Shown: in pieces, positions 3,001-60,665 of the stretch
How positions within the stretch are numbered: position 1 is the stretch's first letter
How the letters are laid out: each line of letters begins with the position of its first letter
DNA from: Eledone cirrhosa
Lineage: Eukaryota
Length of the DNA stretch: 64,000 nt
Direction: 5' to 3'
Assembly (NCBI GenBank): GCA_964016885.1
Contig: OZ024742.1
Span: forward strand, 14,136,001-14,200,000
The notes under the pieces: generated by a model
What the model was told of the DNA's origin: nothing
The model's input: the letters and a program-made list of their open reading frames with translations, nothing else
The model's database searches: none
Translations under genes and position numbers: made by a program

Positions 3001-6000
3001 CTCAATGTGAGACTATCTAACCCAAGAAGTGACCACCTGACCTAGTCTAGCCTCAATGTGAGACCATCTAACCCTAGAAGTGACCACCTGACCTAGTCTA
3101 ACCTCAATGTGAGACCTCTAACCCTAGAAGTGACCAGCTGACCTTGTCTAGCCTCAATGTTTGACCTTCTATCCCTAGAAGTGACCACCTGACCTAGTCG
3201 AGCCTCAATGTGAGATAATCTAACGCAAGAAGTGACCACCTGACCTAGTGTAACCTCAATGTGAGACCTAACCCTAGAAGTGACCAGCTGACCTAGTCTA
3301 GCCTCAATGTGAGACTTCTAACCCTAGAAGTGACAACCTGACCGAGTGTAAACTGAATGTGAGACCTAACCCAAGAAGTAACCACCTGACCTAGTCTAGC
3401 CTCCAATGTGAGACCTAATCCTAGAAGTGACCACCTGACCTAGTCTAGCCTCAATGTGAGACCTAACCCTAGAAGTGATCAGCTGACCTAGTCTAGCCTC
3501 AATGTGTGACCTATCCCTAGAAGTGACCACCTGACCTAGTGTAACCTAACCCTAGAAGTGACCAACTGACCTAGTCTAGCCTAAATGTGAGACCTAACCC
3601 TAGAAGTGACCAACTGACCTAGTCTAGCCTCAATGTGAGACCATCTAATGCAAGAAGTGACCACCTGACCTAGTGTAACCTCATTGTGAGACATAACCCT
3701 AGAAGTGACCACCTGACCTAGTCTAACCTCAATGTGAGACCTTTAACCCTAGAAGTGACCACCTGACCTAGTCTAGCCTCAATGTGAGACCTAACCCTAG
3801 AAGTGACCACCTGACCTAGTCTAGCCTCAATGTGAGATTTCTAACCCTAGAAGTGACAACCTGACCAAGTGTAAACTGAATGTGAGACCTTCTAACCCAA
3901 GAAGTGACCACCTGACCTAGTCTAGCCTCAATGTGAGACCTTCTTACCCTAGAAGTGACCACCTGACCTAGTCTAGCCTCAATGTGAGACCTAACCCTAG
4001 AAGTGACCACCTCACCTAGTCTAACCTCAATGTGAGACCTCTAACCCTAAAAGTGACCAGCTGACCTTGTCTAGCCTCAATGTGTGACTTATCCCTAGAA
4101 GTGACCACCTGACCTAGTGTAACCTAAACCTAGAAGTGACCACCTGACCTTGTCTAGCCTCACTGTGAGAGCATCTAATGCAAGGAGTGACCACCTGTGA
4201 GAACTGACCACCTGACCTAATCTAGTCTCTATGTGAGACTATCTAACCCAAGAAGTGACCAGCTGACCTAGTCTAGCCTCAATGTGAGACTTCTAACCCT
4301 ATAAGTGACACCCTGACCGAGTGTATACTGAATGTGAGACCTAACCCAAGAAGTAACCACCTGACCTAGTCTAGCCTCCAATGTGAGACCTAATCCTAGA
4401 AGTGACCACCTGACCTAGTCTAGCCTCAATGTGAGACCTAACCCTAGAAGTGACCACCTGACCTAGTCTAGCCTCAATGTGAGATCTTACTCTAGAAGTG
4501 ACCACCTGACCTAGTCTAGCCTCAATGTGAAACCTAACCCTAGAAGTGACCACCTGACCTAGTCTAGCCTCAATGTGAGACCTAACCTTAGAAGTGACCA
4601 CCTGACCTAATCTAGTCTCAATGTGAGACTATCTAACCCAAGAAGTGACCAGCTGACCTAGTCTAGCCTCAATGTGAGACCTTGTAACCCTAGAAGTGAC
4701 CACCTGACCTAGTCTAGCCTCAATGTGAGACCTAACTCTCGAAGTGAACACCTGACCTAGTCTAGCCTCAATGTGAGACCATCTAACCCTAGAAGTGACC
4801 ACCTTACCTAGTCTAGTCTCATTGTGAGACCTAACCCTAGAAGTGACAACCTGACCTAGTGTAAACTGAATGTGAGACCTAACCCAAGAAGTGACCACCT
4901 GACCTAGTCTAGCCTCAATGTGAGACGATCTAACCCAAGAAGTGACCACCTGAACTAGTGTAACCTCAATGAGACCTAACCCAAGAAGTGACCACCTGAC
5001 CTAGTCTAGCCTCAATGTGAGACGATCTAACCCAAAAAGTGACCACCTGAACTAGTGTAACCTCAATGAGACCTAACCCTAGAAGTGACCACCTGACCTT
5101 GTCTAGCCTCACTGTGAGACCATCTAACGCAAGGAGTGACCACCTGACCTAGTGTAACCTCAATGTGAGAACTTCTAACCCTAGAAGTGACCACTTACCT
5201 AGTCTAACCTCAATGTGAGACCTAACCCTAGAAGTGACCACCAGACCTAGTCTAGCCTCAATGTGAGACCTTCTAACCCTAGAAGTGACCACCTTACCTA
5301 GTCTAGTCTCAATGTGAGACCTAACCCTAGAAGTGACCACCTGACCTAGTCTAGCCTCAATGTGAGATCTTACTCTAGAAGTGACCACCTGACCTAGTCT
5401 AGCCTCAATGTGAGACCTAACCCTAGAAGTGACCACCTGACCTAGTCTAGCCTCAATGTGAGACCTAACCTTAGAAGTGACCACCTGACCTAATCTAGTC
5501 TCAATGTGAGACTATCTAACCCAAGAAGTGACCAGCTGACCTAGTCTAGCCTCAATGTGAGACCTTGTAACCCTAGAAGTGACCACCTGACCTAGTCTAG
5601 CCTCAATGTGAGACCTAACTCTCGAAGTGAACACCTGACCTAGTCTAGCCTCAATGTGAGACCATCTAACCCTAGAAGTGACCACCTGACCTAGTCTAAC
5701 CTCAATGTGAGACCTCTAACCCTAGAAGTGACCAGCTGACCTTGTCTAGCCTCAATGTTTGACCTTCTATCCCTAGAAGTGACCACCTGACCGAGTCTAG
5801 CCTCAATGTGAGATAATCTAATGCAAGACGTGACCACCTGACCTAGTGTAACCTCAATGTGAGACCTAACCCTAGAAGTGACCAGCTGACCTAGTCTAGC
5901 CTCAATGTGAGACTTCTAACCCTAGAAGTGACAACCTGACCGAGTGTAAACTGAATGTGAGACCTAACCCAAGAAGTAACCACCTGACCTAGTCTAGCCT

Positions 6001-9000
6001 CCAATGTGAGACCTAATCCTAGAAGTGACCACCTGACCTAGTCTAGCCTCAATGTGAGACCTGACCTAGTCTAGACTCAATGTGTGACCTATCCCTAGAA
6101 GTGACCACCTGACCTAGTGTAACCTAACCCTAGAAGTGACCAACTGACCTAGTCTAGCCTAAATGCGAGACCTAACCCTAGAAGTGACCACCTGACCTAG
6201 TCTAGCCTCAATGTGAGACCTAACCCTAGAAGTGACCACCTGACCTAGTCTAGCCTCAATGTGAGATTTCTAACCCTAGAAGTGACAACCTGACCAAGTG
6301 TAAACTGAATGTGAGATCTAACCCAAGAAGTGACCACCTGACCTAGTCTAGCCTCAATGTGAGACCTTCTAACCCTAGAAGTGACCACCTCACCTAGTCT
6401 AACCTCAATGTGAGACCTCTAACCCTAGAAGTGACCAGCTGACCGTGTCTAGCCTCAATGTGTGACTTATCCCTAGAAGTGACCACCAGACCTAGTGTAA
6501 CCTAAACCTAGAAGTGACCACCTGACCTTGTCTAGCCTCACTGTGAGACCATCTAACTCAAGGAGTGACCACCTGACCTAGTGTAACCTCAATGTGACAA
6601 CTTCTAAACCTAGAAGTGACCACTTACCTAGTCTAACCTCAATGTGAGACCTAACCCTAGAAATGACCACCAGACCTAGTCTAGCCTCAATGTGAGACCT
6701 AACACTAGAAGTGACCACCTGACCTAGTCTGACCTCTAACCCTGGAAGTGACCAGCTGACCTTGTCTAGTCTCAAGGTTTGACCTATCCCTAGAAGTGAC
6801 CACCTGACCTACTCTAGCCTCAATATGAGACCATCTAACGCAAGAAGTGACCACCTGACCTAATCTAGCCTCAATGTGAGACTATCTAACCCAAGAAGTG
6901 ACCACCTGACCTAGACTAGCCTCAATGTGAGACCATCTAACCCTAGAAGTGACCACCTTACCTAGTCTAACCTCAATGTGAGACCTCTAACCCTAGAAGT
7001 GACCAGCTGACCTTGTCTAGCCACGATCTTTGACCTTCTAACCCAAGAAGTGACCAGCTGACCTAGTCTAGCCTCAATGTGAGACTTCTAACCCTAGAAG
7101 TGACAACCTGACCTAGTGTAAACTGAATGTGAGACCTTCTAACCCAAGAAGTGACCATCTGACCTAGTCTAGCCTCAATGTGAGACGATCTAACCCAAGA
7201 AGTGACCTCCTGACCTAGTGTAACCTCAATGAGACCTAACACGAGAAGCGACCATCTGACTTAGTCCAGCCTCAATGTGAGATCTTCTAACCCTTGAAGT
7301 GACCACCTGACCTAGTCTAGCCTCATTTGGAGACCTAACCCTAGAAGTGACCACCTGACCTAGTCTAACCTCAATGTGAGACCTAACCCTAGAAGTGACC
7401 ACCTGACCTACTGTAGCCTCAATGTGAGAGTATCTAACCCAAGAAGTGACCACCTGACCTAGTCTAGCCTCAATGTGAGACCATCTAACCCTAGAATTGA
7501 CCACGTGACCTAATCTAACCTCAATGTGAGACCTCTAACCCTAGAACTGAACAGCTGACCTTGTCTAGCCTCAATGTATGACTTATCCCTAGAAGTGATC
7601 ACCTGACCTAGTCTAGCCTCAATGTGAGACCATCTAACGCAAAAAGTGACCACCTGACCTAGTGTAACCTCAATGTGAGATCTAACCCTAGAAGTGACCA
7701 CCTCACTTAGTCTAGCCTGAATGTGAGACCTTCTAACCTTAGAAGTGACCACCTGAGCTAATCTAGTCTCAATGTGAGACTATCTAACCCAAGAAGTGAC
7801 CAGCTGACCTAGTCTAGCCTCAATGTGAGACGATCTAACCCAAGAAGTGACCACCTGAACTAGTGTAACCTCAATGAGACCTAACCCTAGAAGTGACAAC
7901 CTGACCTAGTCTAGCCTCAATGTGAGACCTAACCCTAGAAGTGACAACCTGACCTAGTGTAAACTGAATGTGAGACCTAACCCAAGAAGTGACCACCTGA
8001 CCTAGTCTAGCCTCAATGTGAGACGATCTAACCCAAGAAGTGACCACCTGAACTAGTGTAACCTCAATGAGACCTAACCCTAGAAGTGACAACCTGACCT
8101 AGTCTAGCCTCAATGTGAGACCTAACCCTAGCAGTGACCACCTGACCTAGTCTAGCCTCAACGTGAGACCTAACCCTAGAAGTGATTACCTGACCTAATC
8201 TAGCCTCAATGTGAGACTATCTAACCCAAGAAGTGACCACCTGACCTAGTCTAGCCTCAATGTGAGACCATCTAACCCTAGAAGTGACCACCTGACCTAG
8301 TCTAACCTCAATGTGAGACCTCTAACCCTAGAAGTGACCAGCTGACCTTGTCTAGCCTCAATGTTTGACCTTCTATCCCTAGAAGTGACCACCTGACCTA
8401 GTCTAGCCTCAACGTGAGATAATCTAACGCAAGAAGTGACCACCTGACCTAGTGTAACCTCAATGTGAGACCTAACCCTAGAAGTGACCAGCTGACCTAG
8501 TCTAGCCTCAATGTGAGACTTCTAACCCTAGAAGTGACAACCTGACCGAGTGTAAACTGAATGTGAGACCTAACCCTAGAAGTGATCAGCTGACCTAGTC
8601 TAGCCTCAATGTGTGACCTATCCCTAGAAGTGACCACCTGACCTAGTGTAACCTAACCCTAGAAGTGACCAACTGACCTAGTCTAGCCTAAATGTGAGAC
8701 CTAACCCTAGAAGTGACCACCTGACCTAGTCTAGCCTCAATGTGAGACCATCTAACGCAAGAAGTGACCACCTGACCTAGTGTAACCTCATTGTGAGACA
8801 TAACCCTAGAAGTGACCACCTGACCTAGTCTAACCTCAATGTGAGACCTTTTAACCCTAGAAGTGACCACCTGACCTAGTCTAGCCTCAATGTGAGACCT
8901 AACCCTAGAAGTGACCACCTGACCTAGTCTAGCCTCAATGTGAGATTTCTAAACCTAGAAGTGACAACCTAACCAAGTGTAAACTGAATGTGAGACCTAA

Positions 9001-27665: not shown

Positions 27666-27727
27666 ATACGTGGATTAACTTTGAGTAATTCCGATGTTAT
27701 ACGCCAAGTCCACAATAGTTTCTCTAG
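27666..27727 (+). CDS. UCHL5: UCHL5/UCH37 internal exon (IRGLTLSNSDVIRQVHNSFS-R)
   Basis: Polypyrimidine tract and TACAG acceptor, AG|GTAAGA donor. Matches the UCHL5 motif GLALSNSDVIRQVHNSFAR. Phase 2 end fits the next exon. Confidence 0.93.
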
Positions 27728-28271: not shown

Positions 28272-28402
28272 GCAACAGATGTTTGAATTTGATGAGAAAC
28301 TAGCCAAGAAGGATGATGATGTATACCACTTTGTTGGTTATCTCCCTATTAATGGCCGTTTGTATGAACTAGATGGTTTAAAAGATGGACCAGTAGATTT
28401 AG
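28272..28402 (+). CDS. UCHL5: UCHL5 exon carrying catalytic His and Asp ([44 protein letters not shown])
   Basis: Peptidase C12 motifs YHF and LYELDGL. AAG acceptor after a T-rich tract, G|GTGAGT donor, phases consistent. Confidence 0.96.
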
Positions 28403-29029
28403 GTGAGTCTTATTCTTCTTTATTGTGGGATTATTGTCTTCCTTTTCTTGTTGTGTTGATTGATGATCATTGTAAACATGACTACCTCATATCTTTAGGG
28501 ATATCTAGGACTACATTATCTAATGTGCCCTTCCTCTTTTTTTTAAGACATTAGGTACTCTCAGGCCTCAAATAAGAGTTGTCACCCCACCCCACCCCTA
28601 CACGCTTATTAATTTTTCAGATTTTTCCAACCCCTTGCTATTATTCCATCCACCTCCAGTTATTAAATTTTACTACTCTATAAATCCCATACGTTATAAA
28701 ATAAATAGGATGGGTTGGGCTCTCAATATATAAATTAAACGACTAATTCTGGGTTTTTTTTTAAATCAACAGAGACAACCTAGAAAAATTACCAATTTTC
28801 CAACCCCCAGATGTGTGATGTTAGTGTACATGATCAGCATGTCCACTTTCCCTGCTAGCAAGGTCTGTATAGACCAAGTCAATACTGAAGTGGTGGCTAC
28901 TGATCTCCCAGACAGGCCAAGGATCTGTTGTATCACCTATGTTCCCAGCAAGGGTTGGACAGGTCTATATAGACCAAGTCAATACTGTAGCAATGGCTAC
29001 TGATCTCCCAGACAAGCCAGGGATCTGTT

Positions 29030-29345
29030 GTCCAGCAAAGCATGGATGAGCTGAGAGAGAGAAACTGAGTATAAAAGGAATCAAATGTAGAGTGTGCAAG
29101 AGAGAAAGGCTGCACTGGTATGGTCTTGTGATGTGTATTTGAGTTGAAAAATGCCAAGAGTTCCATGTGGGAAGAAGCTGCAGTAGAGGAAGACCAAGGA
29201 ACACCTAAGTAGAAGTGGTTAGAGTAGATCTCATAACAGAAAACCTGACAGAGAATATGATGAAGGAACACAAATGGGGGGAAGCTTTGCTGGAAGAGAT
29301 CCTCTAACTCATGCAAGCAGAGAAACACACAAACTGATGATGATA
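29030..29345 (+). mobile_element. Decayed RTE-like LINE 3' fragment
   Basis: Degenerate ELREKLSIKGIKC..HWYG..RGRPR translation resembling 59920-60369, ending in (GAT)n. Confidence 0.7.
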
Positions 29346-29400
29346 AAATAAGAATTTACAGAGACTTAGCTGCTCTTTCTCGTCATACAGTTACTTAGAG

Positions 29401-29655
29401 GTGAAGGCGTATGGTTTAGTGGTTAGCATTGGGCTTGCAATCGAAAGGTTGTGAGTTCAATTCTCGGACCGGGTGATGTGTTGTTTCCTTGAGCAAGGCA
29501 CTTTATTTCATGTTGCTCCAGTTTACTCAGCTGTAGAAATGAGATGATAGGACTGGGGGTCCCTATCATTAAATTACCCAAGACACCTCCAACAAGATAT
29601 ACCTTGGAGGAGGCCAGCTAAACCTGAATAGGGGTGAGCTGTAACAACAACAACA
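29401..29655 (+). mobile_element. tRNA-derived SINE with (CAA)n tail and 12-bp target-site duplication
   Basis: A box TGGTTTAGTGG, B box GAGTTCAATTC, central CCTTGAGCAAGGCACTT domain. TSD AGTTACTTAGAG at 29389-29400 and 29656-29667. Confidence 0.88.
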
Positions 29656-29755
29656 AGTTACTTAGAGCCTCCCTCTTTAACACTATTGTCTTTGTTGTGT
29701 ATTTTATTTTTCCTTTATCTTCACTTTCTTTCACTTTCTTTTCTCTACTTGGCAG

Positions 29756-29822
29756 GTGTTGTTGATGAGAATGCTGACTGGCTTGACGTCGTTAGACCTG
29801 TTATTGAGAAACGGATACAGAA
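29756..29822 (+). CDS. UCHL5: UCHL5 exon (VVDENADWLDVVRPVIEKRIQ-K)
   Basis: Long pyrimidine tract and GCAG acceptor, AA|GTATGT donor. Matches the DW...RPVIEKRIQKY motif. Confidence 0.93.
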
Positions 29823-30826
29823 GTATGTAATAGTTTTAATATTAATCTTACCTTCAAGGGTGGTGGAGGGTCTAATACAGAAGTATGTAATAGTTTTAGT
29901 ATTAATCTTACCTTCAAGGGTGGTGGAGGGTCTAATACAGAAGTATGTAATAGTTTTAGTATTAATCTTACCTTCAAGGGTAGTGGAGGGTCTAATACAG
30001 AAGTATGTAATAGTTTTAGTATTAATCTTACCTTCAAGGGTGGTGGAGGGTCTAATACAGAAGTATGTAATAGTTTTAATATTAATCTTACCTTCAAGGG
30101 TGGTGGAGGGTCTAATACAGAAGTATGTAATAGTTTTAATATTAATCTTACCTTCAAGGGTGGTGGAGGGTCTAATACAGAAGTATGTAATAGTTTTAAT
30201 ATTAGTCTTACCTTCAAGGGTGGTGGAGGGTCTAATACAGAAGTATGTAATAGTTTTAATATTAATCTTACCTTCAAGGGTGGTGGAGGGTCTAATACAG
30301 AAGTATGTAATAGTTTTAGTATTAATCTTACCTTCAAGGGTAGTGGAGGGTCTAATACAGAAGTATGTAATAGTTTTAGTATTAATCTTACCTTCAAGGG
30401 TGGTGGAGGGTCTAATACAGAAGTATGTAATAGTTTTAATATTAATCTTACCTTCAAGGGTGGTGGAGGGTCTAATACAGAAGTATGTAATAGTTTTAAT
30501 ATTAATCTTACCTTCAAGGGTGGTGGAGGGTCTAATACAGAAGTATGTAATAGTTTTAATATTAGTCTTACCTTCAAGGGTGGTGGAGGGTCTAATACAG
30601 AAGTATGTAATAGTTTTAATATTAATCTTACCTTCAAGGGTGGTGGAGGGTCTAATACAGAAGTATGTAATAGTTTTAATATTAATCTTACCTTCAAGGG
30701 TGGTGGAGGGTCTAATACAGAAGTATGTAATAGTTTTAATATTAGTCTTACCTTCAAGGGTGGTGGAGGGTCTAATACAGAAGTATGTAATAGTTTTAAT
30801 ATTAATCTTACATTTAAGGGTGGTGG
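29815..30826 (+). repeat. 60-bp minisatellite, 17 near-identical units, starting at the UCHL5 exon end
   Basis: Consecutive 60-nt lines are nearly identical from 29821 to 30781. Confidence 0.98.
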
Positions 30827-31203
30827 ATTGATAGAATTGGTGGAGCATCTGATAAAATGCCATTGTGGTATTTGTTCTGTATATTCTGATGCCAAACTGC
30901 TGCTTTGGTAGACATCTGGTGCCAAACTCTCTTACTGCTGAGGTAGACTTCTGGTGCCAGACTTTCCTGTTGAGGTAGACATCTGGTGCCAGACTTTCCT
31001 TACCTAGTAGTACTACATCCCATATCCTATGTAATATTTTCATTTCACGCCACTAGTTGTCATTGTTACAACTATATTTCTCATATCCCACTCCATTCCC
31101 AACTCTTATATTTTTCCCACTTTATTCCCAACTCTCATTATATTTCAGTTGTTTTCACTGTAACATAATATATGATTGTTTTCTCTTTATCTTCTACATC
31201 CAG

Positions 31204-31291
31204 GTACCACAATGATGAAATCCACTTTAATTTAATGGCCATTGTCTCAGATCGGAAAATGTTATATGAACGCAAGATGAAAGATTTTGAG
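31204..31291 (+). CDS. UCHL5: UCHL5 exon (YHNDEIHFNLMAIVSDRKMLYERKMKDFE)
   Basis: CCAG acceptor, GAG|GTTTGT donor. Matches the EI.FNLMAIVSDRKM motif. Confidence 0.95.
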
Positions 31292-31863: not shown

Positions 31864-31956
31864 AGCTCTTCCATGGAAACTGATGATATCGGTAGTGAGA
31901 TAAGCAGACTCCAGATCTTGATACAAGAAGAGGAACAAAAGATGGCACGTTATAAA
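31864..31956 (+). CDS. UCHL5: UCHL5 exon (SSSMETDDIGSEISRLQILIQEEEQKMARYK)
   Basis: TTTTTGCAG acceptor, AAA|GTAAAT donor, phase 0-0. Encodes the coiled-coil start of the ULD domain. Confidence 0.9.
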
Positions 31957-32691: not shown

Positions 32692-32790
32692 ATTGAAAAC
32701 ATCCGTCGCAAACATAATTACTTGCCATTTATTGTTGAACTGCTGAAGTGTTTGGCCAAAGAGGAGAAACTAGTACCTCTGGTAGAGAAG
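32692..32790 (+). CDS. UCHL5: UCHL5 exon, ULD domain ([33 protein letters not shown])
   Basis: TTTACAG acceptor, AAG|GTAATC donor. Contains the hallmark [13 protein letters not shown] motif. Confidence 0.96.
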
Positions 32791-33639: not shown

Positions 33640-33681
33640 GCCAAAGAAAAAGCTGCAAAGAAGAAGGAAGTGAAAGCTTGA
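33640..33681 (+). CDS. UCHL5: UCHL5 terminal coding exon (AKEKAAKKKEVKA*)
   Basis: TTTGTTTAG acceptor, in frame with the previous exon, TGA at 33679-33681. Lys/Glu-rich tail as in UCHL5 orthologues. Confidence 0.88.
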   Translation, partial: AKEKAAKKKEVKA

Positions 33682-34576
33682 TAATACCTGTTCTCTATCT
33701 CTTGCTTTATCCACTCACCTGTTGGTGTTCATTAGTAAAAGGTAAGCTCTCTCAACAATCCAGTCTGCTTGATGAACACTGAGCTGTTGCTACTAATGTT
33801 TCTGGTATTTCTAGTGGTTGGTTGTTGCTTATCCTCCACCTCCTCCTAACCACACCAGCCTCCACCTCCTCCTCTTCCTAACCACACCAGCCTCCACCTC
33901 CTCCTAACCACACCAGTCTACTCAACCTCAATTGTGTAAACAGACCTATGATGAGAGCTACTCCAGCTGGGACCAGCCCAGTATATTTTCAGACTATATA
34001 TCTTCAACTACATTATCCAACCTTCTATAACTTTGCAATATATTTTTATTGACTTAGAAAGTTAATGTCACTAATTAATGTTATTTAATGGAACTCATTA
34101 TTTAGCCAAAAAATATTATTATATTAATAGGTGAACAGAGTGAAATAGTCAGCAGTGGCTTTGTGTTATAGTAATAGGTAACTTGTTCTACATATGTACA
34201 TACTTATATATGTATATATACACACTAAAACCATGATAGTAATGGGGAAACTGTTCTTGTAAATATCATCATCGTTTAATGTCCATTTTCCACGTTAGTA
34301 TGGGTATGACTCCACATAAGTACTGGCTAAGTATGGGATAACATGTCCAACCGTTGTTAGCAGGGAAAACATGTTAAATGATGATGATGATGATAACTAA
34401 TATTTTATATAAAATGTTATTGTTATATACTTATCTTCAATGTAGTATTACTATCTCTTTCTCTCCCTTTCTAGGGCTGTGTCTTGTTCTTTATGACCAC
34501 ATCCAACGATGCTGTTCTTCGTCTACTGTATATGTTTACCATTTTCAACACCAAATATCTGATGTTTTCATATATC

Positions 34577-34582
34577 AATAAA
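34577..34582 (+). promoter_or_regulatory. Candidate polyadenylation signal AATAAA for UCHL5
   Basis: AATAAA ~900 bp after the stop, followed by T-rich sequence. Not verified. Confidence 0.35.
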
Positions 34583-34889
34583 CATTTGACAATATTATTC
34601 AATAATTCTTTCTTTATTTCAAAATATATATAATATCTATAGAAACTATGTAATATGAGAGCTACAGCTTGATAACATCTGTCTGCCCCCATTAGGTGGC
34701 TATTGTGGTATGCTTGAGTAAGTTTGTGAGTCAGAGATTGATTTGTTGAATTTGGAGGGTGAGTACAGTTTGGTTTGGTAAGAGTCATGGGTACAAGTTG
34801 GCGTATGGTTTAGGGTGTTTGCTGAAGGTTAGTAGACTAATTGGAGCAATAACTGTCTTATTTACGCATATATATATGCGTAAATAAGT

Positions 34890-39262: not shown

Positions 39263-39855
39263 GATCATCATCATCATCATTATCACCATTTAACGTCCAT
39301 TTTTCACACAAGCATGGGTTAGACAAGTTGTCCTGTTGTGAGACAAGCCAGATTAAATGTCCCTGTCTTGCTGATACACAACTGATTTGGGCTTGGTTTC
39401 TATGGCTGGATGCCTTTCCTAATGCCAACAACATTTATAGTGAGTGCTGGGTGATTTTTTGATGTGTCAACATCACGACCACTTTACATTGTGGGCTGGG
39501 TGCTTTTTGTTGTGATACCTACACAACCTCTTTACATTGTGGGCTGGGTGCTTTTTGTTGTGATACCTACACAACCTCTTTACATTGTGGGCTGGGTGCT
39601 TTTTGTTGTGATACCTACACAACCTCTTTACATTGTGGGCTGGGTGCTTTTTGTTGTGATACCTACACAACCTCTTTACATTGTGGGCTGGGTGCTTTTT
39701 GTTGTGATACCTACACAACCTCTTTACATTGTGGGCTGGGTGCTTTTTGTTGTGACACCTACAAGACCACGTTACAGTGTGGACTGGGTGTTTTTCGTTG
39801 TGACACCTACACAAGCATTTTACAGTTTGAGCTGGATGCTTTTTGTTGTCATCAA
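39263..39855 (-). repeat. LINE/SINE 3' tail with an internal 48-bp unit amplified ~8-9 times
   Basis: (CAT)n tail at 39263, several identical 48-bp units, homologous to 58574-58800. Confidence 0.85.
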
Positions 39856-44190: not shown

Positions 44191-44540
44191 GGTGAAGAAG
44201 AATGTATTTATGTACATTAACCCATACACATCTGACATACCATGTCCGTCTCAGCCCCCCCCCTCTCTCTCTCTGCCACACTAACTCATATCTCCTCACA
44301 CTCCAACACATACACATTTGGTGCCCTTCATCACACCACCCCATCCTTCCATTTATTGTCCCAATCTCATTAATCCCAGCCTCCTGCCCCTTATTCTGAA
44401 GTTATCCACCCTCATGCTATACCTCCCTACTCTCCTATCTATTATTCACTATAAAATACCCCTAAATCCCTTTAAAAGTCAGTGATTCCCTAATTGTAGA
44501 AATATTGTAAGGTACCTTCAGTCATTTTGGTCACACTAAA

Positions 44541-47500
44541 CATTACCAAGGTACTCTAGTTACATTACCAAGGTACTCTAGTTACATTACCAGGGTACTC
44601 TAGTTACATTACCAAGGTACTCTAGTTACATTGCCAAAGTACTCTAGTTACATTACCAAGGCACTCTAGTTACATTACCAAGGTACTCTAGTCACATTAC
44701 CAGGGTACTCCAGTTACACTACCAAGGTACTCTAATTACATTACCAAAGTACTGTGAGTTACATTCCCAAGGTACTCTAGTTACATTACCAAGGTACTCT
44801 AGTTACATTATCAAGGTACTCTAGTTACATTACCAAGGTACTCTAGTTGCATTACCAGGGTACTCTAGTTACATTACCAAGGTACTGTAGTTATATTACC
44901 AGGGTACTCTAGTTACATTACCAGGATACTTTAGTTACATTACCAATGTACTCTAGTTACATTACCAGGGTACTCTAGTTACATTACCAAGGCACTCTAG
45001 TTACACTACCAAGGTACTCTAGTTACATTTCCAAGGTACTCTAGTTATATTACGAAGGTACTCTAGTTACATTTCCAAGGCACTCTAGTTACATTTCCAA
45101 GGTACTCTAGTTATATTACCAAGGCACTCTAGTTATATTACCAGGGTACTCTAGTTACACTACCAAGGTACTCTAGTTACACTACCAAGGTACTCTAGTT
45201 ACACTACCAATGTACTCTAGTTATATTACCAAGGTACTTTAGTTACACTATCAAGGTACTCTAGTTATATTACCAAGGTACTCTGGTTACATTTCCAAGG
45301 TACTCTAGTTACATTTCCAAGGTACTCTAGTTACATTTCCAAGGCACTCTAGTAATATTAACAAGGTACTCTAGTTACACTACCAAGGTACTCTAGTTAT
45401 ATTACCAAGGTACTTTAGTTACATTACCAATGTACTCTAGTTATACTACCAAGGTACTCTAGTACATTACCAAGGTACTCTAGTTACATTACCAAGGTAC
45501 TCTAGTTACATTACCAAGGTACTCTAGTTACATTACCAAGGTACTCTAGTTACACTATCAAGGTACTCTAGCCATATTACCAAGGTACTCTAGTTACACT
45601 ACCAATGTACTCTAGTTACATTACCAGGGTACTCTAGTTACATTACCAAGGCACTCTAGTTACACTACCAAGGTACTCTAGTTACATTTCCAATGTACTC
45701 TAGTTATATTACGAAGGTACTCTAGTTACATTTCCAAGGTACTCTAGTTACATTACCAAGGAACTCTAGTTACATTTTCAAGGCACTCTAGTTATATTAC
45801 CAAGGTACTTTAGTTACACTACCAAGGTACTCTAGTTATATTACCAAGGTACTTTAGTTACATTACCAATGTACTCTAGTTACACTACCAGGATACTCTA
45901 GTTACACTACCAAGGTACTCTAGTACATTACCAAGGTACTCTAGTACATTACCAAGGTACTCTAGTTACATTACCAAGGTACTATAGTTATATTACCAGG
46001 GTACTGTAGTTACATTACCAAGGTACTCTAGTACACTACCAAGGTACTCTAGTTACATTACCAAGACACTAGTTATATTACAAAGGTACTCTAGTTACAC
46101 TACCAGGGTACTCTAGTTACATTACCAAGGTACTCTAGTTACATTACCAAGGTACTGTAGTTAAATTGCCAAGGTACTGTAGTTATATTGCCAAGGTACT
46201 CTAGTTATATTACCAAGGTACTCTAGTTGCATTACCATGGTATTCTAGTTGCATTACCATAGTATTCTAGTTACACTACCAAGGTACTCTAGTTATATTA
46301 CCAAGGTACTCTAGTTACATTACTAAGGTACTCTAGTTACATTAAAAAGTGCTTTAGTTATATTACCAAGGTACTCCAGTTATATTACCAAGGTACTCTA
46401 GTTATATTACCAGGCTACTCTAGTTACATTACCAAGGTACTCTAGTTACATTATCAAGGTACTCTAGTTACATTACCAAGGTACTCTAGTTGCATTACCA
46501 GAGTACTCTAGTTACATTACCAAGGTACTGTAGTTATATTTCCAGGGTACTCTAGTTACATTACCAGGATACTCTAGTTACATTACCAATGTACTCTAGT
46601 TACATTACCAAGGAACTCTAGTTACATTTCCAAGGCACTCTAGTTATATTACCAAGGCACTCTAGTTATATTACCAGGCTACTCTAGTTACACTACCAAG
46701 GTACTCTAGTTACACTACCAAGGTACTCTACTTCACTACCAATGTACTCTAGTTATATTACCAAGGTACTCTAGTTATATTACCAAGGTACTCTACATTT
46801 CCAAGGTACTCTAGTTACATTTCCAAGGCACTCTAGTAATATTACCAAGGTACTCTAGTTACACTACCAAGGTACTCTAGTTATATTACCAAGGTACTTT
46901 AGTTACATTACCAATGTACTCTAGTTACACTACCAGGATACTCTAGTTATACTACCAAGGTACTCTAGTACATTACCAAGGTACTCTAGTTGCATTACCA
47001 AAGTACTCTAGTTACATTACCAAGGTACTCTAGTTACACTATCAAGGTACTCTAGTCATATTACCAAGGTACTCTAGTTACATTATCAAAGTACTCTAGT
47101 CATATTACCAAGGTACTCTAGTTACACTACCAAGGTACTCTAGTTACATTACCAGGGTACTCTAGTTACATTACCAAGGTACTCTAGTTACATTTCCAAG
47201 GTACTCTAGTTACATTACCAAGGAACTCTAGTTACATTTCCAAGACACTAGTTATATTACAAAGGTACTCTAGTTACACTACCAGGGTACTCTAGTTACA
47301 TTACCAAGGTACTCTAGTTACATTTCCAAGGCACTCTAGTTACATTTCCAAGGTACTCTAGTTACATTACGAAGGTAATCTAGTTACATTTCCAAGGTAC
47401 TCTAGTTACATTACCAAGGAACTCTAGCTACATTTCCAAGGCACTCTAGTTATATTACCAAGGCACTCTAGTTATATTACCAGGGTACTCTAGTTACACT

Positions 47501-48626
47501 ACCAATGTACTCTAGTTATATTACCAAGGTACTTTAGTTACACTATCAAGATACTCTAGTTATATTACCAAGGTACTCTAGTTATATTACCAACGTACTC
47601 TAGTTACATTTCCAAGGCACTCTAGTAATATTACCAAGGTACTCTAGTTACACTACCAAGGTACTCTAGTTATATTACCAAGGTACTTTAGTTATATTAC
47701 CAATGTACTCTAGTTACACTACCAGGATACTTTAGTTATACTACCAAGGTACTCTAGTACATTACCAAGGTACTCTAGTTACATTACCAAGGTACTCTAG
47801 TTACATTACCAAGGTACTATAGTTATATTACCAGGGTACTGTAGTTACATTACCAAGGTACTCTAGTACACTACCAAGGTACTCTAGTTACATTACCAAG
47901 ACACTAGTTATATTACAAAGGTACTCTAGTTACACTACCAGGGTACTCTAGTTACATTACCAAGGTACTCTAGTTACATTTCCAAGGTACTCTAGTTGCA
48001 TTACCATGGTATTCTAGTTGCATTACCATGGTATTCTAGTTACACTACCAAGGTACTCTAGTTATATTACCAAGGTACTCTAGTTACATTACTAAGGTAC
48101 TCTAGTTACATTAAAAAGTGCTTTAGTTATATTACCAAGGTACTCCAGTTATATTACCAAGGTACTCTAGTTATATTACCAGGCTACTCTAGTTATATTA
48201 CCAAGGTGCTCTAGTTACATTACCAAGGTACTCTAATTACATTACCAAGGTACTCTGGTTATATTACCAGGGTACTCTAGTTATATTACCAAGGTACTCC
48301 AGTTATATTACCAAGGTACTCTAGTTATATTACCAGGCTACTCTAGTTATATTACCAAGGTACTCTAGTTATATTACCAGGCTACTCTAGTTATATTACC
48401 AGGCTACTCTAGTTATATTACCAGGATACTCTAGTTACACTACCAAGGTACTCTAGTTAAATTACCAAGGTACTCTAGTTACACTACCAAAGAACTCTAA
48501 TTACATTACCAAGGTACTCTAGTTACATTAAAAAGTGCTCTAGATATATTACCAGGGTACTCTAGTTACATTACCAGGGTACTCTAATTACATACCAAGG
48601 TACTCTAGTTATATTACCAGGGTACC
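44541..48626. repeat. 22-bp satellite (TTACATTACCAAGGTACTCTAG)n, ~4.1 kb
   Basis: Monomer read directly; recurring variant blocks. Confidence 0.97.
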
Positions 48627-48987: not shown

Positions 48988-50350
48988 ACCCTACCTGAGC
49001 TAACATACCCCACCCCCATCTATATATACCCTACCTGAGCTAACATACCCCACACCCCTATCTACATATACCCTACCTGAGCTAACATACCCACACCCCT
49101 CTACATAAACCCTACCTGAGCTAACATACCCCACACCCCTCTACATAAACCCTACCTGAGCTAACATACCCAACACCCCTCTATATATACCCTACCTGAG
49201 CTAACATACCCCACACCCCTCTACATATACCCTACCTGAGCTAACATACCCACACCCCTCTACATAAACCCTACCTGAGCTAACATACCCCACACCCCTC
49301 TACATATACCCTACCTGAGCTAACATACCCCACACCCCTCTACATAAACCCTACCTGAGCTAACATACCCAACACCCCTCTATATATACCCTACCTGAGC
49401 TAACATACCCCACACCCCTCTACATAAACCCTACCTGAGCTAACATACCCACACCCCTCTACATATACCCTACCTGAGCTAACATACCCCACACCCCTAT
49501 CTACATATACCCTACCTGAGCTAACATACCCACACCCCTCTACATATACCCTACCTGAGCTAACATACCCCACACCCCTCTACATATACCCTACCTGAGC
49601 TAACATACCCACACCCCTCTACATAAACCCTACCTGAGCTAACATACCCCACACCCCTCTATATAAACCCTACCTGAGCTAACATACCCCACACCCCTCT
49701 ACATATACCCTCCCTGAGCTAACATACCCACACCCCTCTACATATACCCTACCTGAGCTAACATACCCCACACCCCTCTATATAAACCCTACCTGAGCTA
49801 ACATACCCCACACCCCTCTACATATACCCTACCTGAGCTAACATACCCCACACCCCTCTACATATACCCTACCTGAGCTAACATACCCCACCCCCAGCTA
49901 CATATACCCTACCTGAGCTAACATACCCCACACCCCTCTACATATACCCTACCTGAGCTAACATACCCCACCCCCAGCTACATATACCCTACCTGAGCTA
50001 ACATACCCCACACTCCTCTACATAAACCCTACCTGAGCTAACATACCCCACACTCCTCTACATATACCCTACCTGAGCTAACATACTCCACACCCCTCTA
50101 CATATACCCTACCTGAGCTAACAAACCTCACCCCCATCTACATATACCCTACCTGAGCTAACATACCCCACACCCCCTCTACATATACCCTACCTGAGCT
50201 AATATACTCACCCCACTCCCGCCCCTCTGTCTGATCTAGTAACTCTACCGGAGCTAATATCCCCCCCCCCTCTGATCTTGTAACCCTACCTGAGCTAATA
50301 TAACCCCCGACACCCTGATCTAGTAACTCTAACTGAGCTAATATACCCCC
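48988..50350. repeat. ~40-bp C-rich minisatellite (ACCCTACCTGAGCTAACATACCCCACACCCCTCTACATAT)n, degenerating to ~50960
   Basis: Monomer read directly. Confidence 0.95.
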
Positions 50351-51654: not shown

Positions 51655-52950
51655 TTGTTTGTGGAGGTATCTCTGCATGTCTATATGTATGTATGTGGGT
51701 ACGTGTTTCTGTGTGTGTGTTTGTGGAGGTATCTCTGCATGTCTATATGTATGTATGTATGTGGGTACGTGTTTGTGTGTGTGTGTTTGTGGAGGTATCT
51801 CTGCATGTCTATATGTATGTATGTATGTGGGTACGTGTTTTTGTGTGTGTGTTTGTGGAGGTATCTCTGCATGTCTATATGTATGTATGTATGTGGGTAC
51901 GTGTTTCTGTGTGTGTGTTTGTGGAGGTATCTCTGCATGTCTATATGTATGTATGTGGGTACGTGTTTCTGTGTGTGTGTTTGTGGAGGTATCTTTGCAT
52001 GTCTATATGTATGTATGTATGTATGTGGGTACGTGTTTCTGTGTGTGTTTGTGGAGGTATCTTTGCATGTCTATATGTATGTATGTATGTGGGTACGTGT
52101 TTCTATGTGTGTGTTTGTGGAGGTATCTTTGCATGTCTATATGTATGTATGTATGTGGGTACGTGTTTCTATGCGTGTGTTTGTGGAGGTATCTTTGCAT
52201 GTCTATATGTATGTATGTCTATATGTATGTGAGTACGTGTTTATGTGTGTGTGTGTGTTTGTGGAGGTATCTCTGCATGTCTATATGTATGTATGTATGT
52301 ATGTATATATGTATATGGGTACGTGTTTATGTGTATGCGAGTGTTTGTGGAGTTATCTCTGCATGTCTATATGTATATATGTGGGTACGTGTGTATGTAT
52401 GTGTGTGCGTGCGTTTGTGGAGTTACATCTGCATGTCTATATATGTATGTGTTTATGTGTGTATGTGGTTGTGGGGTTATCTCTGCATGTCACTATGTAT
52501 GTATGTATGTAGGTAGGTACGTGTTTGTGTGTGTTTGTGGAGTTATCTCTGCATGTATGTATGTGGGTATGTGTTTATCTGTGTGCGTGTCGTATTTGTG
52601 TTTATCTCAGCTCTGAGCATGTCTCTATGTATGTGTGTGTGGTGGTATCTGTGTATGTTTGTGTTTATCAGTGGTGTATACGTGTGTGTTTGTGTTTATC
52701 AGTGGTGTATGCGTGTGTGTATCTGTGAGTGTGTGCGTGTGTGTTTGTATCTTTGTGTGTATCTGTGCGCGTGTCTGTGTGTGTGGGGATTTGTGTGTTT
52801 GTGTATATCTGCGCGTGTCTGTGTGTATCTGTGTTTGTGTCTAATCTATGTGTGTGTGTGTATCTGTGTTTGTGTCTAATGTGTGTGTGTGTATCTGTGT
52901 TTGTGTCTAATCTGTGTGTGTATCTGCACGTGCCTATGTGTAATCTACGT
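51655..52950. repeat. ~60-66-bp compound minisatellite with (GT)/(GTAT) microsatellites, decaying into GT-rich low complexity
   Basis: Repeated GTGGAGGTATCTCTGCATGTCTATATG anchor. Confidence 0.9.
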
Positions 52951-53029: not shown

Positions 53030-54015
53030 GTTACCCCTCTCCTTTCACAATCTCTCCAGCCATCAAATACCCCTCTCCTTTCACAATCTCTCCAGCCATC
53101 AAATACCCCTCTCCTTTCACAATCTCTCCAGCCATCAAATACCCCTCTCCTTTCACAATCTCTCCAGCCATCAAATATCTCTCTCCTTTCACAATCTCTC
53201 CAGCCATCAAATATCTCTCTCCTTTCACAATCTCTCCAGCCATCAAATACCTCTCTCCTTTCACAATCTCTCCAGCCATCAAATACCTCTCTCCTTTCAC
53301 AATCTCTCCAGCCATCAAATACCCCTCTCCTTTCACAATCTCTCCAGCCATCAAATACCCCTCTCCTTTCACAATCTCTCCAGCCATCAAATATCTCTCT
53401 CCTTTCACAATCTCTCCAGCCATCAAATACCTCTCTCCTTTCACAATCTCTCCAGCCATCAAATACCTCTCTCCTTTCACAATCTCTCCAGCCATCATAT
53501 ACCTCTCTCCTTTCACAATCTCTCCAGCCATCAAATATCTCTCTCCTTTCACAATCTCTCCAGCCATCAAATATCTCTCTCCTTTCACAATCTCTCCAGC
53601 CATCAAATATCTCTCTCCTTTCACAATCTCTCCAGCCATCAAATACCTCTCTCCTTTCACAATCTCTCCAGCCATCAAATACCTCTCTCCTTTCACAATC
53701 TCTCCAGCCATCAAATATCTCTCTCCTTTCACAATCTCTCCAACCATCAAATATCTCTCTCCTTTCACAATCTCTCCAGCCATCAAATATCTCTCTCCTT
53801 TCACAATCTCTCCAGCCATCAAATATCTCTCTCCTTTCACAATCTCTCCAGCCATCAAATATCTCTCTCCTTTCACAATCTCTCCAGCCATCAAATACCT
53901 CTCTCCTTTCACAATCTCTCCAGCCATCAAATACCTCTCTCCTTTCACAATCTCTCCAGCCATCAAATATCTCTCTCCTTTCACAATCTCTCCAACCATC
54001 AAATATCTCTCTCCT
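53030..54015. repeat. 36-bp minisatellite (CTCTCCTTTCACAATCTCTCCAGCCATCAAATAYCY)n, ~27 units
   Basis: 12-aa periodic ORFs in several frames. Confidence 0.97.
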
Positions 54016-55889: not shown

Positions 55890-56108
55890 CTGCAGAACAG
55901 TCCATGTTTTGGATTAGGCTGAGAGCTGTAGAACAGTCCATGTTTTGGATTAGGCTGAGAGCTGTAGAACAGTCCATGTTTTGGATTAGGCTGAGAGCTG
56001 TAGAACAGTCCATGTTTTGGATTAGGCTGAGAGCTGTAGAACAGTCCATGTTTTGGATTAGGCTGAGAGCTGTAGAACAGTCCAAGTTTTGGAGTAGGGT
56101 GAGAGCTG
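55890..56108. repeat. 36-bp minisatellite, 6 units (AGAACAGTCCATGTTTTGGATTAGGCTGAGAGCTGT)
   Basis: Read directly. Confidence 0.95.
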
Positions 56109-57130: not shown

Positions 57131-58425
57131 CGAGGGGGATCAAAAAGTTCGCGGAATTTTTCAGAAAATATTCTATTTTTCAAAAAATATGATTTACCTT
57201 CAATTTATTTTTCTACATAGTTGCCATCCAGGTCAATACACTTCACAAAGCGATGCTTCCACCTACATCAGCCGTCTCTAAAGAAAGTTGAAGGCCTTGT
57301 TCGAAGCCATGTGTTGGCAGTGTTTTTAGCTTCTTCAACACCACTAAAACGGGTTCCTTTTAGCATTTCTTTGAGTTTTGGAAAGAGGAAAAAGTCTGAT
57401 GGGGCTAAATCTGGACTATAAGGCAGGTGAGGAAGCACTTCCCATCGAAATTCTCGAAGAACTTCTTTTGCAACCCGCGCAGAATGCGCTGGTGCATTGT
57501 CATGGTCAAACAAGATCCCACCATGAAGTTTCCCTTTTCGTTTCTTGACTAATGCCTCTTTCAGTTTCCTTAAAACATTTGCATAGTAAGCTCTTGTCAC
57601 AGTTCTTTGACCTTCAAGATAATCTATTAGTATCACCCCATCTGAATCCCAGAAAATGGTGGCCATCACTTTTTTATCCGACTTTTGAGATTTGAACTTG
57701 ATTGGCCCCGATGATCCACGTGGAAGCCACTGTTTTGACTGCTGTTTGGATTCAGGATCATACTGGTAGATCCAGGTTTAATCTCCGGTGATGATTCTGG
57801 TCAGGAAATGCTCTTCATCAACTTCAATTTTGTTTAATATCGCCAAAGACAGATCACTTCAAAGAATCAGCTGATCTGGGCGCAACGCTTTTGGGACCCA
57901 TCGCACTGAAAGCTTGCTTAGTCCCAAATTATCGTGCAGAATTGAATTTGCCGAACCATATGAAATGTCTAGGGACTTAGCTAACTGATTAACTGTTATT
58001 CTTCGATCTTCTTCAATTAAAGTCTGAGCAGCCTCAACGTTTGGTCATTTTTTGATGTTCCTAGTCTTCCACTGCAATGGTTGTCTTCAAGGTCGTCTCT
58101 CCCTTGTTTGAATCGATGAATCCACTTGTAGACAGCAGTTTTCTTTGGAGCAGTAGTACCGTAAACTTTAACTAAAGCCTCCATAATCTGTGTCCCTTTC
58201 CATTTGAGTTTCACCAGAAACTTGATATTCGATCTTATCTCAAAATAACTATTTTCCATTGTTCCAAAAAGAGTTTTTTTTAAAGAGTGTCAGTACTGTA
58301 CAATAGTCCACGCATGACTGACTGCAAGTGACTAATAGCAAGGTAAACACCCAATGACAATGTTGTGACATGTTTAATATTGTCTTACTACGATAAAATT
58401 CCGCGAACTTTTTGATCCCCCCTCG
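57131..58425 (-). mobile_element. Full-length (~1.3 kb) mariner DNA transposon, irritans/Hsmar2-like TIRs
   Basis: ~30-bp TIRs CGAGGGGGATCAAAAAGTTCGCGGAATTTT at both ends; TA on the left, TG on the right; internal transposase remnant. Confidence 0.95.
57205..58259 (-). pseudogene. Disrupted mariner DD34D transposase
   Basis: Motifs WVPKAL, ITGD*TW, HDNAPAH, YSPDLAPSDFFLF, C-terminal GNYVEK*. Contains in-frame stops and a frameshift. Confidence 0.93.
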
Positions 58426-58573: not shown

Positions 58574-59590
58574 TCATCATCATCATCATCATCATCACCG
58601 TTTTACGTCCGTTCTTCCACGCTAGCATGGGTTAGACGGGTTATCCTGTTGTGGGCAGTGTCTGATCTGGCTTGATTTCTACAGCTGGATGCCCTTCCTA
58701 ACACCAACCTCATTTACAGTGAGTGCTGGGTGCTTTTTCGTGGCGCCTACACGTCCACTTTACAGTGTGGGCTGGGTGCTTTTTTTGCCGTGGCACCTCC
58801 ACGACCACCTTGCGGTGGGGGGAGTGGGGGCATATTGTTTATATGCTTCAGCATGTACCCATGGGAGGTCGGGTACCCTGTATTACTGCGTGACGCCAGA
58901 AGTCACGGTCGTGTGTCATTGTCTTTGAGAGGTGTAGTTGGGTAAGGTCGGCTTTTATCACCTCATCCCAAGTCATCTTGGGTCTCCCCACTCCGCGGTT
59001 TCCATCAACTTCTAGTGCTCTGCACCTTTTTATGCAGCTGTCATCCTTCATACGCATCACATGTCCATACCAGCGTAACCGCCTCTCCTGCACGCAGCAT
59101 TTGATTCCTCTTATGCTCAGTCTCTCTCTCAATTCCTTTATGCTTTGTCGTTCACGTATATTACTGTTACACATCCATCGGAGCATGCAGGCTTCGTTTC
59201 TCTCTAATCTACGTAAGTCTTCCACCTTCAGCGCCCAGGTCTCACTACCATGCAACATCGCTGTTCGGATACACGCATCATACAGTCTGCCTTTCATTCT
59301 GAGGGAGAAGCCTTTTGCAGCTAGCAGTGGTAGTAGTTCCCTAAACTTCTTCCATCCCGTTCTTACCCTAGTTATTGTACTTTCTGAGCACCCACCTCCG
59401 TTGCTAATTCGGTCACCTAGGTAGCAGAAGCTGTCTACTGTTTCTACAGGGCCCTCCCAGAGATTGGTGGTACTTGTTTCCTGTGGCTGTTTGCTTGCTG
59501 TTTCAGCACAGCTGCTGCATGTGAATCCTACATTCTTAATTAAGCTTCCTGAGATCCCGCTACATCTCTTGTGTACCCATTGTTTGCATT
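58574..59590 (-). mobile_element. 5'-truncated RTE-clade LINE; open frame ~59590 to 58848, then 3' UTR and (GAT)n tail
   Basis: FCYLGD, MLHGSETW, RRLRWYGHVMR and GRPKMTW motifs. Confidence 0.92.
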
Positions 59591-59679
59591 TGGGGCAGAG
59601 AATATATATATATATACCTACATAAATGTTGATGATTGTATTTATATATATATAAATACAATATATATATTACAAAAAA

Positions 59680-59813
59680 CATGGGCGGATGTGGTGAGAG
59701 TAGACCTCAGATCGCTGAAGCTCATGGAGGAGATGACGAAGGACCGTGCTGAATAGGACCTGTCCAACCCTTGCAAGCAGGGAAAAGCAGATGTAAAATG
59801 AGGATGATGATGA
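59680..59813 (+). mobile_element. Short RTE 3'-end fragment (different subfamily)
   Basis: WADVVRVDL...MTKDR followed by the CCAACCCTTGCAAGCAGGGAAAAG..(GAT)n tail. Confidence 0.7.
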
Positions 59814-59834
59814 TATATATATATATATATCATC

Positions 59835-60665
59835 AAGTACAATAACTAGGGTAAGAACGGGATGGAAGAAGTTCAGGGAACTACTGCCACTGCTAGCTGC
59901 AAAAGGCTTCTCCCTCAGAATGAAAGGCAGACTGTATGATGCGTGTATCCGAACAGCGATGTTGCATGGTAGTGAGACCTGGGCGCTGAAGGTGGAAGAC
60001 TTACGTAGATTAGAGAGAAACGAAGCCTGCATGCTCCGATGGATGTGTAACAGTAATATACGCAAACGACAAAGCATAAATGAATTGAGAGAGAGACTGA
60101 GCATAAGAGGAATCAAATGCTGTGTGCAGGAGAGGCGGTTGCGCTGGTATGGACATGTGATGCGTATGAAGGATGACAGCTGCATAAAAAGGTGCAGAGC
60201 ACTAGAAGTCGATGGAAACCGCGGAGTGGGGAGACCCAAGATGACCTGGGATGAGGTGATAAAAGCCGACCTTACCCAATTACACCTCTCAAAGGCGATG
60301 ACACACGACCGTGACCTCTGGCGTCATGCAGTAATACAGAGTACCCGACCTCCCATGGGTACAAGCTGAAGCATATAGACAATATGCCCCCACACCCCCC
60401 ACCGCAAGGTGGTCGTGGAGGTGCCACGGCAAAAAAGCACCCAGCCCACACTGTAAAGTGGATGTGTAGGCGCCACGAAAAAGCACCCAGCACTCACTGT
60501 AAATGAGGTTGGTGTTAGGAAGGGCATCCAGCTGTAGAAATCAAGCCAAATCAGTTCCTGTATGAGCAAGGCATGGTCAGCTGACCAGACACTGCCCACA
60601 ACAGGACAACCCGTCTAACCCATGCTAGCGTGGAAGAACGGACGTAAAACGGTGATGATGATGAT
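59835..60665 (+). mobile_element. 5'-truncated RTE-clade LINE, near-identical to 58574-59382 in inverted orientation
   Basis: The two 149-aa ORFs differ at only about six residues; same 3' UTR and (GAT)n tail. Confidence 0.92.

What the first reader, a model, noticed from the sequence alone, without database searches (positions are those of the whole stretch)
29815..30831. Splice-donor array: a 60-bp minisatellite gives one UCHL5 exon 17 identical in-frame 5' splice sites
The repeat unit spans the exon/intron junction. ATACAGAA|GTATGTAATAG occurs at the true donor (29823) and every 60 nt to 30783. The unit is a multiple of 3 and stop-free in the UCHL5 frame (ORF 29686-30831). Splicing from the n-th donor to the exon at 31204 stays in frame and inserts 0-16 copies of a hydrophobic 20-mer (YVIVLILILPSRVVEGLIQK) near the end of the catalytic domain, with no premature stop to trigger NMD. 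This is either a VNTR-tuned isoform ladder or dosage rheostat, or a natural test of how exon definition picks the first of 17 identical donors. The geometry is seen directly; donor usage is inference.
Basis: partly seen in the sequence, partly recalled or inferred. Interest (0 to 1): 0.8.

Follow-up and report, generated by a model that had tools for sequence, protein, structure and literature searches.

The report
Repeated splice donor in octopod UCHL5
A 60-base piece spanning the end of one exon of an octopod UCHL5 gene is repeated 17 times and copies the splice signal each time, but the one spliced-transcript assembly examined joins at the first signal only, so it is likely an ordinary, mostly silent repeat of a kind already known from human genes such as F7.

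Summary
In detail: 17 donors GAA|GTATGT lie 60 nt apart (29823-30783), each in frame with exon 31204. Genomic runs show the tandem loop at a depth fitting about 17 copies. The gene is an intact UCHL5, 315/317 identical to the Octopus protein. The ladder reading is not supported. The only spliced contig found (run X4) joins donor 1 to 31204, and no X4 contig was laid on unit-only sequence; minor use is not excluded. No insert appears in 121 of 121 homologs examined. An in-frame, stop-free unit is a 9-16% chance event. The same gene has two more junction-spanning repeats, both 32 bp and out of frame. The array looks young: its tail comes from a high-copy dispersed element, and a related organism's run shows no array. 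The arrangement is known from human F7, IFI6, CBS, LMNB2 and PDGF (PMC1557585); in F7 the most upstream donor wins whatever the copy number. This scan noted eight similar cases in other genomes (unchecked). New member of a known kind; low interest.

The parts
29756..29822 (+). UCHL5 coding exon (67 nt), ending in donor 1
   Evidence: AG and GT borders; spliced joint 28400 to 29754 in run X4; matches PDB UCHL5 chains
29815..30827 (+). 60-bp minisatellite, 16.9 copies; unit = last 8 exon bases + first 52 intron-side bases; 17 donors at 29823+60n
   Evidence: only locus matched in the genome search; loop seen in DNA runs
29823..29828 (+). Donor 1, the one used by the spliced contig
   Evidence: X4 contig's 30 loose letters before 31204 are the end of exon 29756-29822; its cover stops at 29825
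29859..29882 (+). 24-nt in-frame microexon-like stretch in each unit (acceptor-like AAG before it, donor after it); no use seen
   Evidence: 12 of 17 pyrimidines, against 12-17 at eight true acceptors; one true acceptor of this gene (28272) is also AAG
30812..30879 (+). Head of a high-copy dispersed element (SINE-like; family not identified); its first bases form the tail of the repeat unit
   Evidence: depth in the thousands against 6.32 single-copy in X2; 6 blastn hits in 790 kb, starting near the same motif
31204..31291 (+). Next UCHL5 exon (acceptor for the array's intron)
27666..27727 (+). UCHL5 exon after the 326-kb satellite intron
28272..28402 (+). UCHL5 exon upstream of the array exon
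31864..31956 (+). UCHL5 exon
   Evidence: X4 loose end behind 31291 is this exon's start
32692..32790 (+). UCHL5 exon
33640..33741 (+). Last coding exon of UCHL5 (stop codon), with a donor in the 3' UTR
34475..34600 (+). 3' UTR exon with AATAAA at 34577 (end inferred from the X4 contig's length)

Best explanation
This is a real 17-copy, 60-bp intronic minisatellite whose unit straddles a UCHL5 exon-intron junction; the spliced contig examined uses the first donor, and the other 16 donors are likely passed over because the most upstream donor wins, so the array is likely a young, functionless by-product of tandem duplication. Shown: the geometry, the array in DNA runs, the intact gene, donor 1 use in one run's assembled transcript, and the unit's tail matching a dispersed element. 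Inferred order of events: (1) a SINE-like element inserted about 30 nt downstream of the donor; (2) a stretch from the exon end into the element's head was duplicated, possibly between two GATA words (29814, 30851), then shortened by 17 nt between two TGGTGGA repeats (30821, 30838); (3) the unit was amplified by slippage or unequal crossing-over, as repeated 6-unit and 3-unit variant blocks suggest. Inferred splicing mechanism: 5'-to-3' first-come donor choice after the upstream acceptor, as shown for human F7, perhaps helped by donor 1 being predicted less base-paired. Any leakage would be minor and confined to donors 2-3, as in IFI6 and CBS.
For: X4's single 1163-nt contig (depth 81) reaches 31204 from the end of exon 29756-29822. 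X4 depth is 0 on 29853-29880 and on 30735-30794. The contig's 577 nt downstream of 28400 fit the donor-1 model and end 18 nt after AATAAA. Spacing across the site is unchanged in 121 of 121 homologs (114 by pattern; 7 read by eye) and there is no insert in 14 of 14 aligned cephalopod-cluster proteins. The site is K210|Y211 in UCH37 numbering (counted), inside residues 205-218 that ubiquitin binding protects and just before I216 of the S1 site (PMC9033301). In-frame and open is common: 19 of 51 sampled arrays have a period divisible by 3 and 45 of 102 of their frames are open. Two further junction-spanning arrays in this gene are 32-bp. Organism B's run matches the exon plus 26 intron bases at single-copy depth with no 60-bp loop. 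Predicted unpaired fraction is 0.65 for donor 1 and 0.34-0.44 for five other copies. In F7 only the most upstream site is used, and repeat number did not change that.
Against: Only one run shows splicing; it is not on record as RNA, and it is contigs, which drop rare variants. Reads were laid on the two flanks, not across the whole array. Two of the five human cases (IFI6, CBS) do use the next two pseudo-donors. None of the three variant positions creates a stop or hits the donor, though three are too few to test. True donors of this gene have predicted unpaired fractions of 0.29-0.69, so accessibility is weak evidence. The homologs are the best-scoring 120 of 596 hits plus one, which biases against long inserts. 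The scanning mechanism was shown in mammalian cells, not cephalopods. The lack of an array in organism B rests on uncovered places, which a filter can cause.
Confidence: 0.8

Rival explanations
1. Substantial leaky use: in some tissue donors 2-3, or the acceptor-like AAG plus donor in a unit (a 24-nt microexon adding VVEGLIQK), are used in 10% or more of transcripts, giving in-frame, NMD-escaping UCHL5 isoforms with 8, 20 or 40 extra residues at the start of the 211-217 loop.
For: All products are in frame. IFI6 and CBS use two extra pseudo-donors. The unit's acceptor-like site has 12 of 17 pyrimidines, the low end of this gene's true acceptors, one of which is also AAG.
Against: No X4 contig is laid on unit-only sequence; the main contig is unbroken across the junction; no database protein has the insert.
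Confidence: 0.1
2. One reading: a selected, copy-number-tuned isoform ladder or dosage rheostat for UCHL5.
For: Period divisible by 3, frame open through all 16 full units, no variant in the donor.
Against: These features arise by chance in about 9-16% of such arrays. The array appears absent in organism B. The site has invariant length in 121 of 121 homologs. Repeat number did not alter donor choice in F7. Donor 1 only in X4.
Confidence: 0.03
3. No extra isoforms, but the decoy donors slow or disturb splicing (intron retention or skipping of the 67-nt exon, both frame-breaking), so longer alleles lower UCHL5 output slightly.
For: In F7, exon skipping rose as the first working donor lay further away. 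Retention would stop at the TGA ending at 30831.
Against: That F7 effect needed mutated upstream donors; donor 1 is intact here. No X4 contig covers the unique intron 30895-31194, though contigs cannot show absence.
Confidence: 0.05
4. The array is an assembly artefact.
For: The three DNA runs are one sample, perhaps the assembly's own.
Against: The 60-base loop is in three runs' independently built contigs at about 8-16 times single-copy depth, 11.2 expected; the units carry patterned variants.
Confidence: 0.02

Closest known systems
Human F7 intron 7 37-bp VNTR (Borensztajn et al. 2006, PMC1557585; seen: abstract, introduction passages, first Results section, G-triplet passages, Discussion)
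   Same: First unit spans the exon-intron boundary; the true donor is followed by identical copies; only the most upstream donor is seen used; the unit holds two G triplets in both cases.
   Different: 60-bp unit and 17 copies against 37 bp and 5-9; every copy is in frame here, only some in F7; invertebrate; unit tail from a dispersed element; polymorphism and pseudo-donor competence untested here.
Human IFI6 (6-16) intron 2 and CBS intron 13 minisatellites (known only from the introduction passage and reference list of PMC1557585; PMC306954 was not held)
   Same: Junction-spanning minisatellite with many pseudo-donors (25 in IFI6; 15-20 repeats in CBS).
   Different: Both use two pseudo-donors besides the true one; none was seen used here.
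Human LMNB2 (100-bp x 10-15) and PDGF intron 4 (81-bp x 16-18) repeats (same passage)
   Same: Similar unit length and copy number; only the true donor is used.
   Different: Different genes and lineage; their frame relations were not examined here.

Membership tests
Junction-spanning minisatellite with reiterated 5' splice sites (F7/IFI6/CBS/LMNB2/PDGF type) | Tandem array whose first unit covers the exon-intron boundary | tested here: met
   Array starts at 29815, exon ends at 29822
Junction-spanning minisatellite with reiterated 5' splice sites (F7/IFI6/CBS/LMNB2/PDGF type) | Exact donor sequence repeated in the intron | tested here: met
   17 of 17 copies carry the same 19-nt word
Junction-spanning minisatellite with reiterated 5' splice sites (F7/IFI6/CBS/LMNB2/PDGF type) | The most upstream donor is the main one used | tested here: met
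   One run, one contig, donor 1; minor use not measurable
Junction-spanning minisatellite with reiterated 5' splice sites (F7/IFI6/CBS/LMNB2/PDGF type) | Pseudo-donors can be activated when upstream ones are lost (shown for F7) | not testable with these tools
   Needs a minigene
VNTR | Copy number differs among alleles or individuals | tested here: inconclusive
Functional alternative 5' splice-site isoform system | Transcripts from more than one donor | tested here: inconclusive
   None among X4's contigs, but contigs drop rare variants
Functional alternative 5' splice-site isoform system | Conservation of the alternative segment in relatives | tested here: not met
   No insert in 121 of 121 homologs or 14 of 14 cephalopod-cluster proteins; no array seen in organism B's run
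UCHL5/UCH37 deubiquitinase (host gene) | Intact reading frame matching UCHL5 proteins with Pfam PF01088 and PF18031 | tested here: met
   317 aa, 315 identical to P0122; cluster representative carries both families; PDB UCHL5 hits for the C-terminal part, E 2e-41
tRNA-derived octopus SINE (source of the unit's tail) | Match to a named SINE family or a tRNA-like head | tested here: inconclusive
   High-copy and dispersed; no Rfam hit, no ARAGORN gene; no repeat library was searched; the SINE label is recalled, and PMC4758252 passages only show that such SINEs exist in octopus

The most novel reading that the evidence does not exclude
Each 60-bp unit is a complete in-frame splicing cassette (donor, acceptor-like AAG, 24-nt microexon), and some tissue uses donors 2-3 or the microexon enough to make stable UCHL5 isoforms with 8-40 extra residues beside the ubiquitin-binding S1 site, in proportions set by copy number: a new alternative exon caught being born from a transposon-seeded minisatellite in a proteasome enzyme.
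Probability: 0.07. Interest if true: 0.55.

Novelty: new member of a known kind. Interest (0 to 1): 0.17.

Why it matters
As it stands it adds an invertebrate example to a known rule: an upstream donor is chosen over many identical downstream ones. It is also a caution for annotation, since the array gives a 397-codon open frame that could be taken for coding sequence. Its modest extra value is that all copies are in frame, so nonsense-mediated decay cannot hide leaky products and raw reads would measure true donor choice; the same gene also offers an acceptor-side case where the last of five copies is the in-frame one. If extra donors or the microexon were used, it would show a route to new alternative exons in a highly conserved enzyme.

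Tried and rejected
No listed run was on record as RNA; this blank is not used as evidence. X4 was taken as RNA only from its spliced joints. The RAD run X6 gave only 107 partial matches below 95% identity, from the dispersed element, so nothing on polymorphism. The structure prediction did not finish, so the site's structural place rests on the PDB sequence alignment and paper passages. Genome-wide enrichment of repeats at junctions was considered and not supported: of 158 ends of 79 conserved-family exon matches (30 of 47 CCT, 19 of 19 proteasome, 30 of 72 myosin matches), 1 is overlapped by an array with donor-like words (true junction not established) and 2 more arrays stop 12-18 nt outside an end (not examined), against 1.17 expected. 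UCHL5's 3 of 22 junctions exceed that (Fisher p 0.006), but local array density is about four times higher (0.86 vs 0.22-0.24 per kb), giving 0.71 expected, P(3 or more) 0.036, with the finding's own array counted, so post hoc. G triplets as the cause of first-donor choice: two per unit, but mutating them did nothing in F7, so not invoked. Selection on the open frame: three variant sites are too few to test. No Rfam family and no tRNA. A protein search with exon plus two units found 1 hit among 59 candidates, covering the exon only. Paper searches; none of the listings showed a cephalopod case (one search listed 2 unrelated papers), which is weak because most subscription papers are not held.

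Full report
Observation. The word ATACAGAA|GTATGTAATAG occurs 17 times at exact 60-nt steps, with donors from 29823 to 30783. TRF reports 29815-30827, period 60, 16.9 copies, 98% matches. All 16 full units are stop-free in the UCHL5 frame, and the joins tried (donors 1, 2, 3 and 17 to 31204) are open. Eight of the 16 full units give the quoted 20-mer; eight carry an Ile>Val change. A search of the genome with the exon plus first unit gave 17 matches, all at this locus.

The array is in sequencing data. DNA runs X1 and X3 show a joint going back 60 bases at depth 148.3 and 87.1, against roughly 9-13 for single-copy contigs. X2 has a 90-nt loop contig at 65.1 against 6.32 for the flank, ratio 10.3; the assembled array predicts 11.2. 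These three runs are one sample and may be the assembly's source; contig depth is only a rough guide. Variation among individuals was not measured.

The host gene. Exons in the window and in L011 give a 317-aa protein, 315 residues identical to P0122, annotated as UCHL5 of Octopus vulgaris and O. sinensis. The genome search found one such locus plus one weak match elsewhere. The junction corresponds to K210|Y211 of UCH37 (counted from the alignment). Passages of PMC9033301 place residues 205-218 among those protected by ubiquitin binding, a loop, and put I216 in the S1 site. Spacing across the site is nine residues in 114 of 121 homologs by pattern and in the other 7 by eye. These are top-scoring hits (120 of 596, plus P0001), so long inserts would be under-sampled. 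Fourteen cephalopod-cluster proteins, of 15 held (one N-terminal fragment left out), show no insert.

Donor use. No run was on record as RNA, but X4 shows a GT..AG joint 28400 to 29754 that the three DNA runs laid beside it lack. Its one contig over the gene (1163 nt, depth 81) reaches 31204 with 30 loose letters equal to the end of exon 29756-29822, that is donor 1. X4 has zero depth on 29853-29880 and 30735-30794, where a transcript from any later donor would lie. The 577 nt downstream of 28400 fit the donor-1 exon chain and end 18 nt after AATAAA. Limits: one run, unknown tissue, contigs that drop rare variants, long tables cut, and flanks laid rather than the whole array. The main isoform uses donor 1; minor use is open.

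Is 'in frame' special? With the donor held fixed, 5,362 of 20,000 shuffled units are stop-free, about 9% after allowing for period. In 79 hand-picked 10-kb stretches, 19 of 51 arrays have a period divisible by 3 and 45 of 102 of those frames are open, about 16% together. The same sample predicts, with no selection, about 36 donors per 100,000 inside the first unit of an array of 10 or more copies and 79 for 5 or more; these rest on few arrays (12 and 18). The same gene holds two more junction-spanning arrays, one over a donor and one over an acceptor, both 32 bp and so out of frame. A control on 158 exon-match ends found 1 possible case against 1.17 expected, and this gene lies in a stretch about four times richer in arrays. 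So there is no sign of selection for an open frame or of a genome-wide bias.

Origin (inferred). The bases from 30812 to 30879 are the head of a very abundant dispersed element, and the unit's last third begins with the same bases. Organism B's run matches the exon plus 26 intron bases at single-copy depth, shows no 60-bp loop, and matches again from 30973, which suggests it lacks both element and array; uncovered places are weak evidence. GATA words at 29814 and 30851 and TGGTGGA repeats at 30821 and 30838 allow a 77-bp first duplication trimmed to 60 bp; this is a post-hoc reading. Variant patterns repeat in blocks of six units (3-8, 9-14) and three (11-13, 14-16), as expected from recent slippage or unequal exchange.

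Mechanism and what is known. PMC1557585 (abstract, introduction passages, one Results section, G-triplet passages and Discussion read) describes this arrangement in human F7 and lists IFI6, CBS, LMNB2 and PDGF. [quoted passage not shown] IFI6 and CBS use two extra sites; LMNB2 and PDGF none. I saw those four cases only through that paper's introduction. First-come choice is the best explanation here. Donor 1 is also predicted more open than five other copies (0.65 vs 0.34-0.44), but true donors of this gene range 0.29-0.69. Earlier notes of this scan list eight like cases in other genomes; they are unchecked and were read after my reading was formed.

No use was seen.

Verdict. Real, ordinary in kind, probably silent: a new member of a known kind, interest 0.17. 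The boldest reading not excluded is tissue-specific use of donors 2-3 or the microexon, tuned by copy number (probability about 0.07). No supplementary files were consulted; none is known to bear on these claims.

Noticed in passing
window 1-27591 and G000:C3:13839188-14163591 (L011-L026): The UCHL5 intron after codon 124 is 326,399 nt long, and a 48/51-bp satellite spans about 324 kb of it (present in 16 of 16 sampled 10-kb stretches; lengths). The X4 contig has 455 nt upstream of 28270, which fits splicing across this intron by length only. A giant satellite-filled intron in a housekeeping gene may deserve its own look.
   Followed up: partly
L011 5400-5506: A 32-bp x 3.3 repeat spans another UCHL5 donor (GT at 5411); copy 3 repeats the donor exactly, copy 2 has a change at -1, copy 4 has lost GT. 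Out of frame.
   Followed up: partly
L011 6998-7159: A 32-bp x 5.1 repeat spans a UCHL5 acceptor: five copies of pyrimidine tract plus TAG; the last (exon start 7141) gives the intact protein, and four copies read AG|GT.
   Followed up: partly
L171 1707-1763: A 24-bp x 2.4 repeat with donor-like words overlaps the end of a myosin exon match; true junction not established.
   Followed up: partly
window 33742-34474: An intron in the 3' UTR, starting about 60 nt after the stop codon; this is near the distance at which a downstream junction can trigger nonsense-mediated decay in mammals (recalled rule). Inferred from GT/AG borders and contig length.
   Followed up: no
window 39474-39849, 44540-48625, 48988-50207, 51656-52300, 53032-54015, 55890-56108: Many other minisatellites (periods 48, 22, 40, 66, 36, 36); several give long open frames, five for the 36-bp array at 53032, so repeat-made ORFs are commonplace here.
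   Followed up: no
window 57268-57777 and L011 about 7450-8750: Mariner-like transposase remnants (label recalled from the translated motifs), similar copies on either side of the satellite.
   Followed up: no
window 58848-60369 (- strand): Two adjacent near-identical open frames that look like the end of a non-LTR retrotransposon coding region (label recalled).
   Followed up: no
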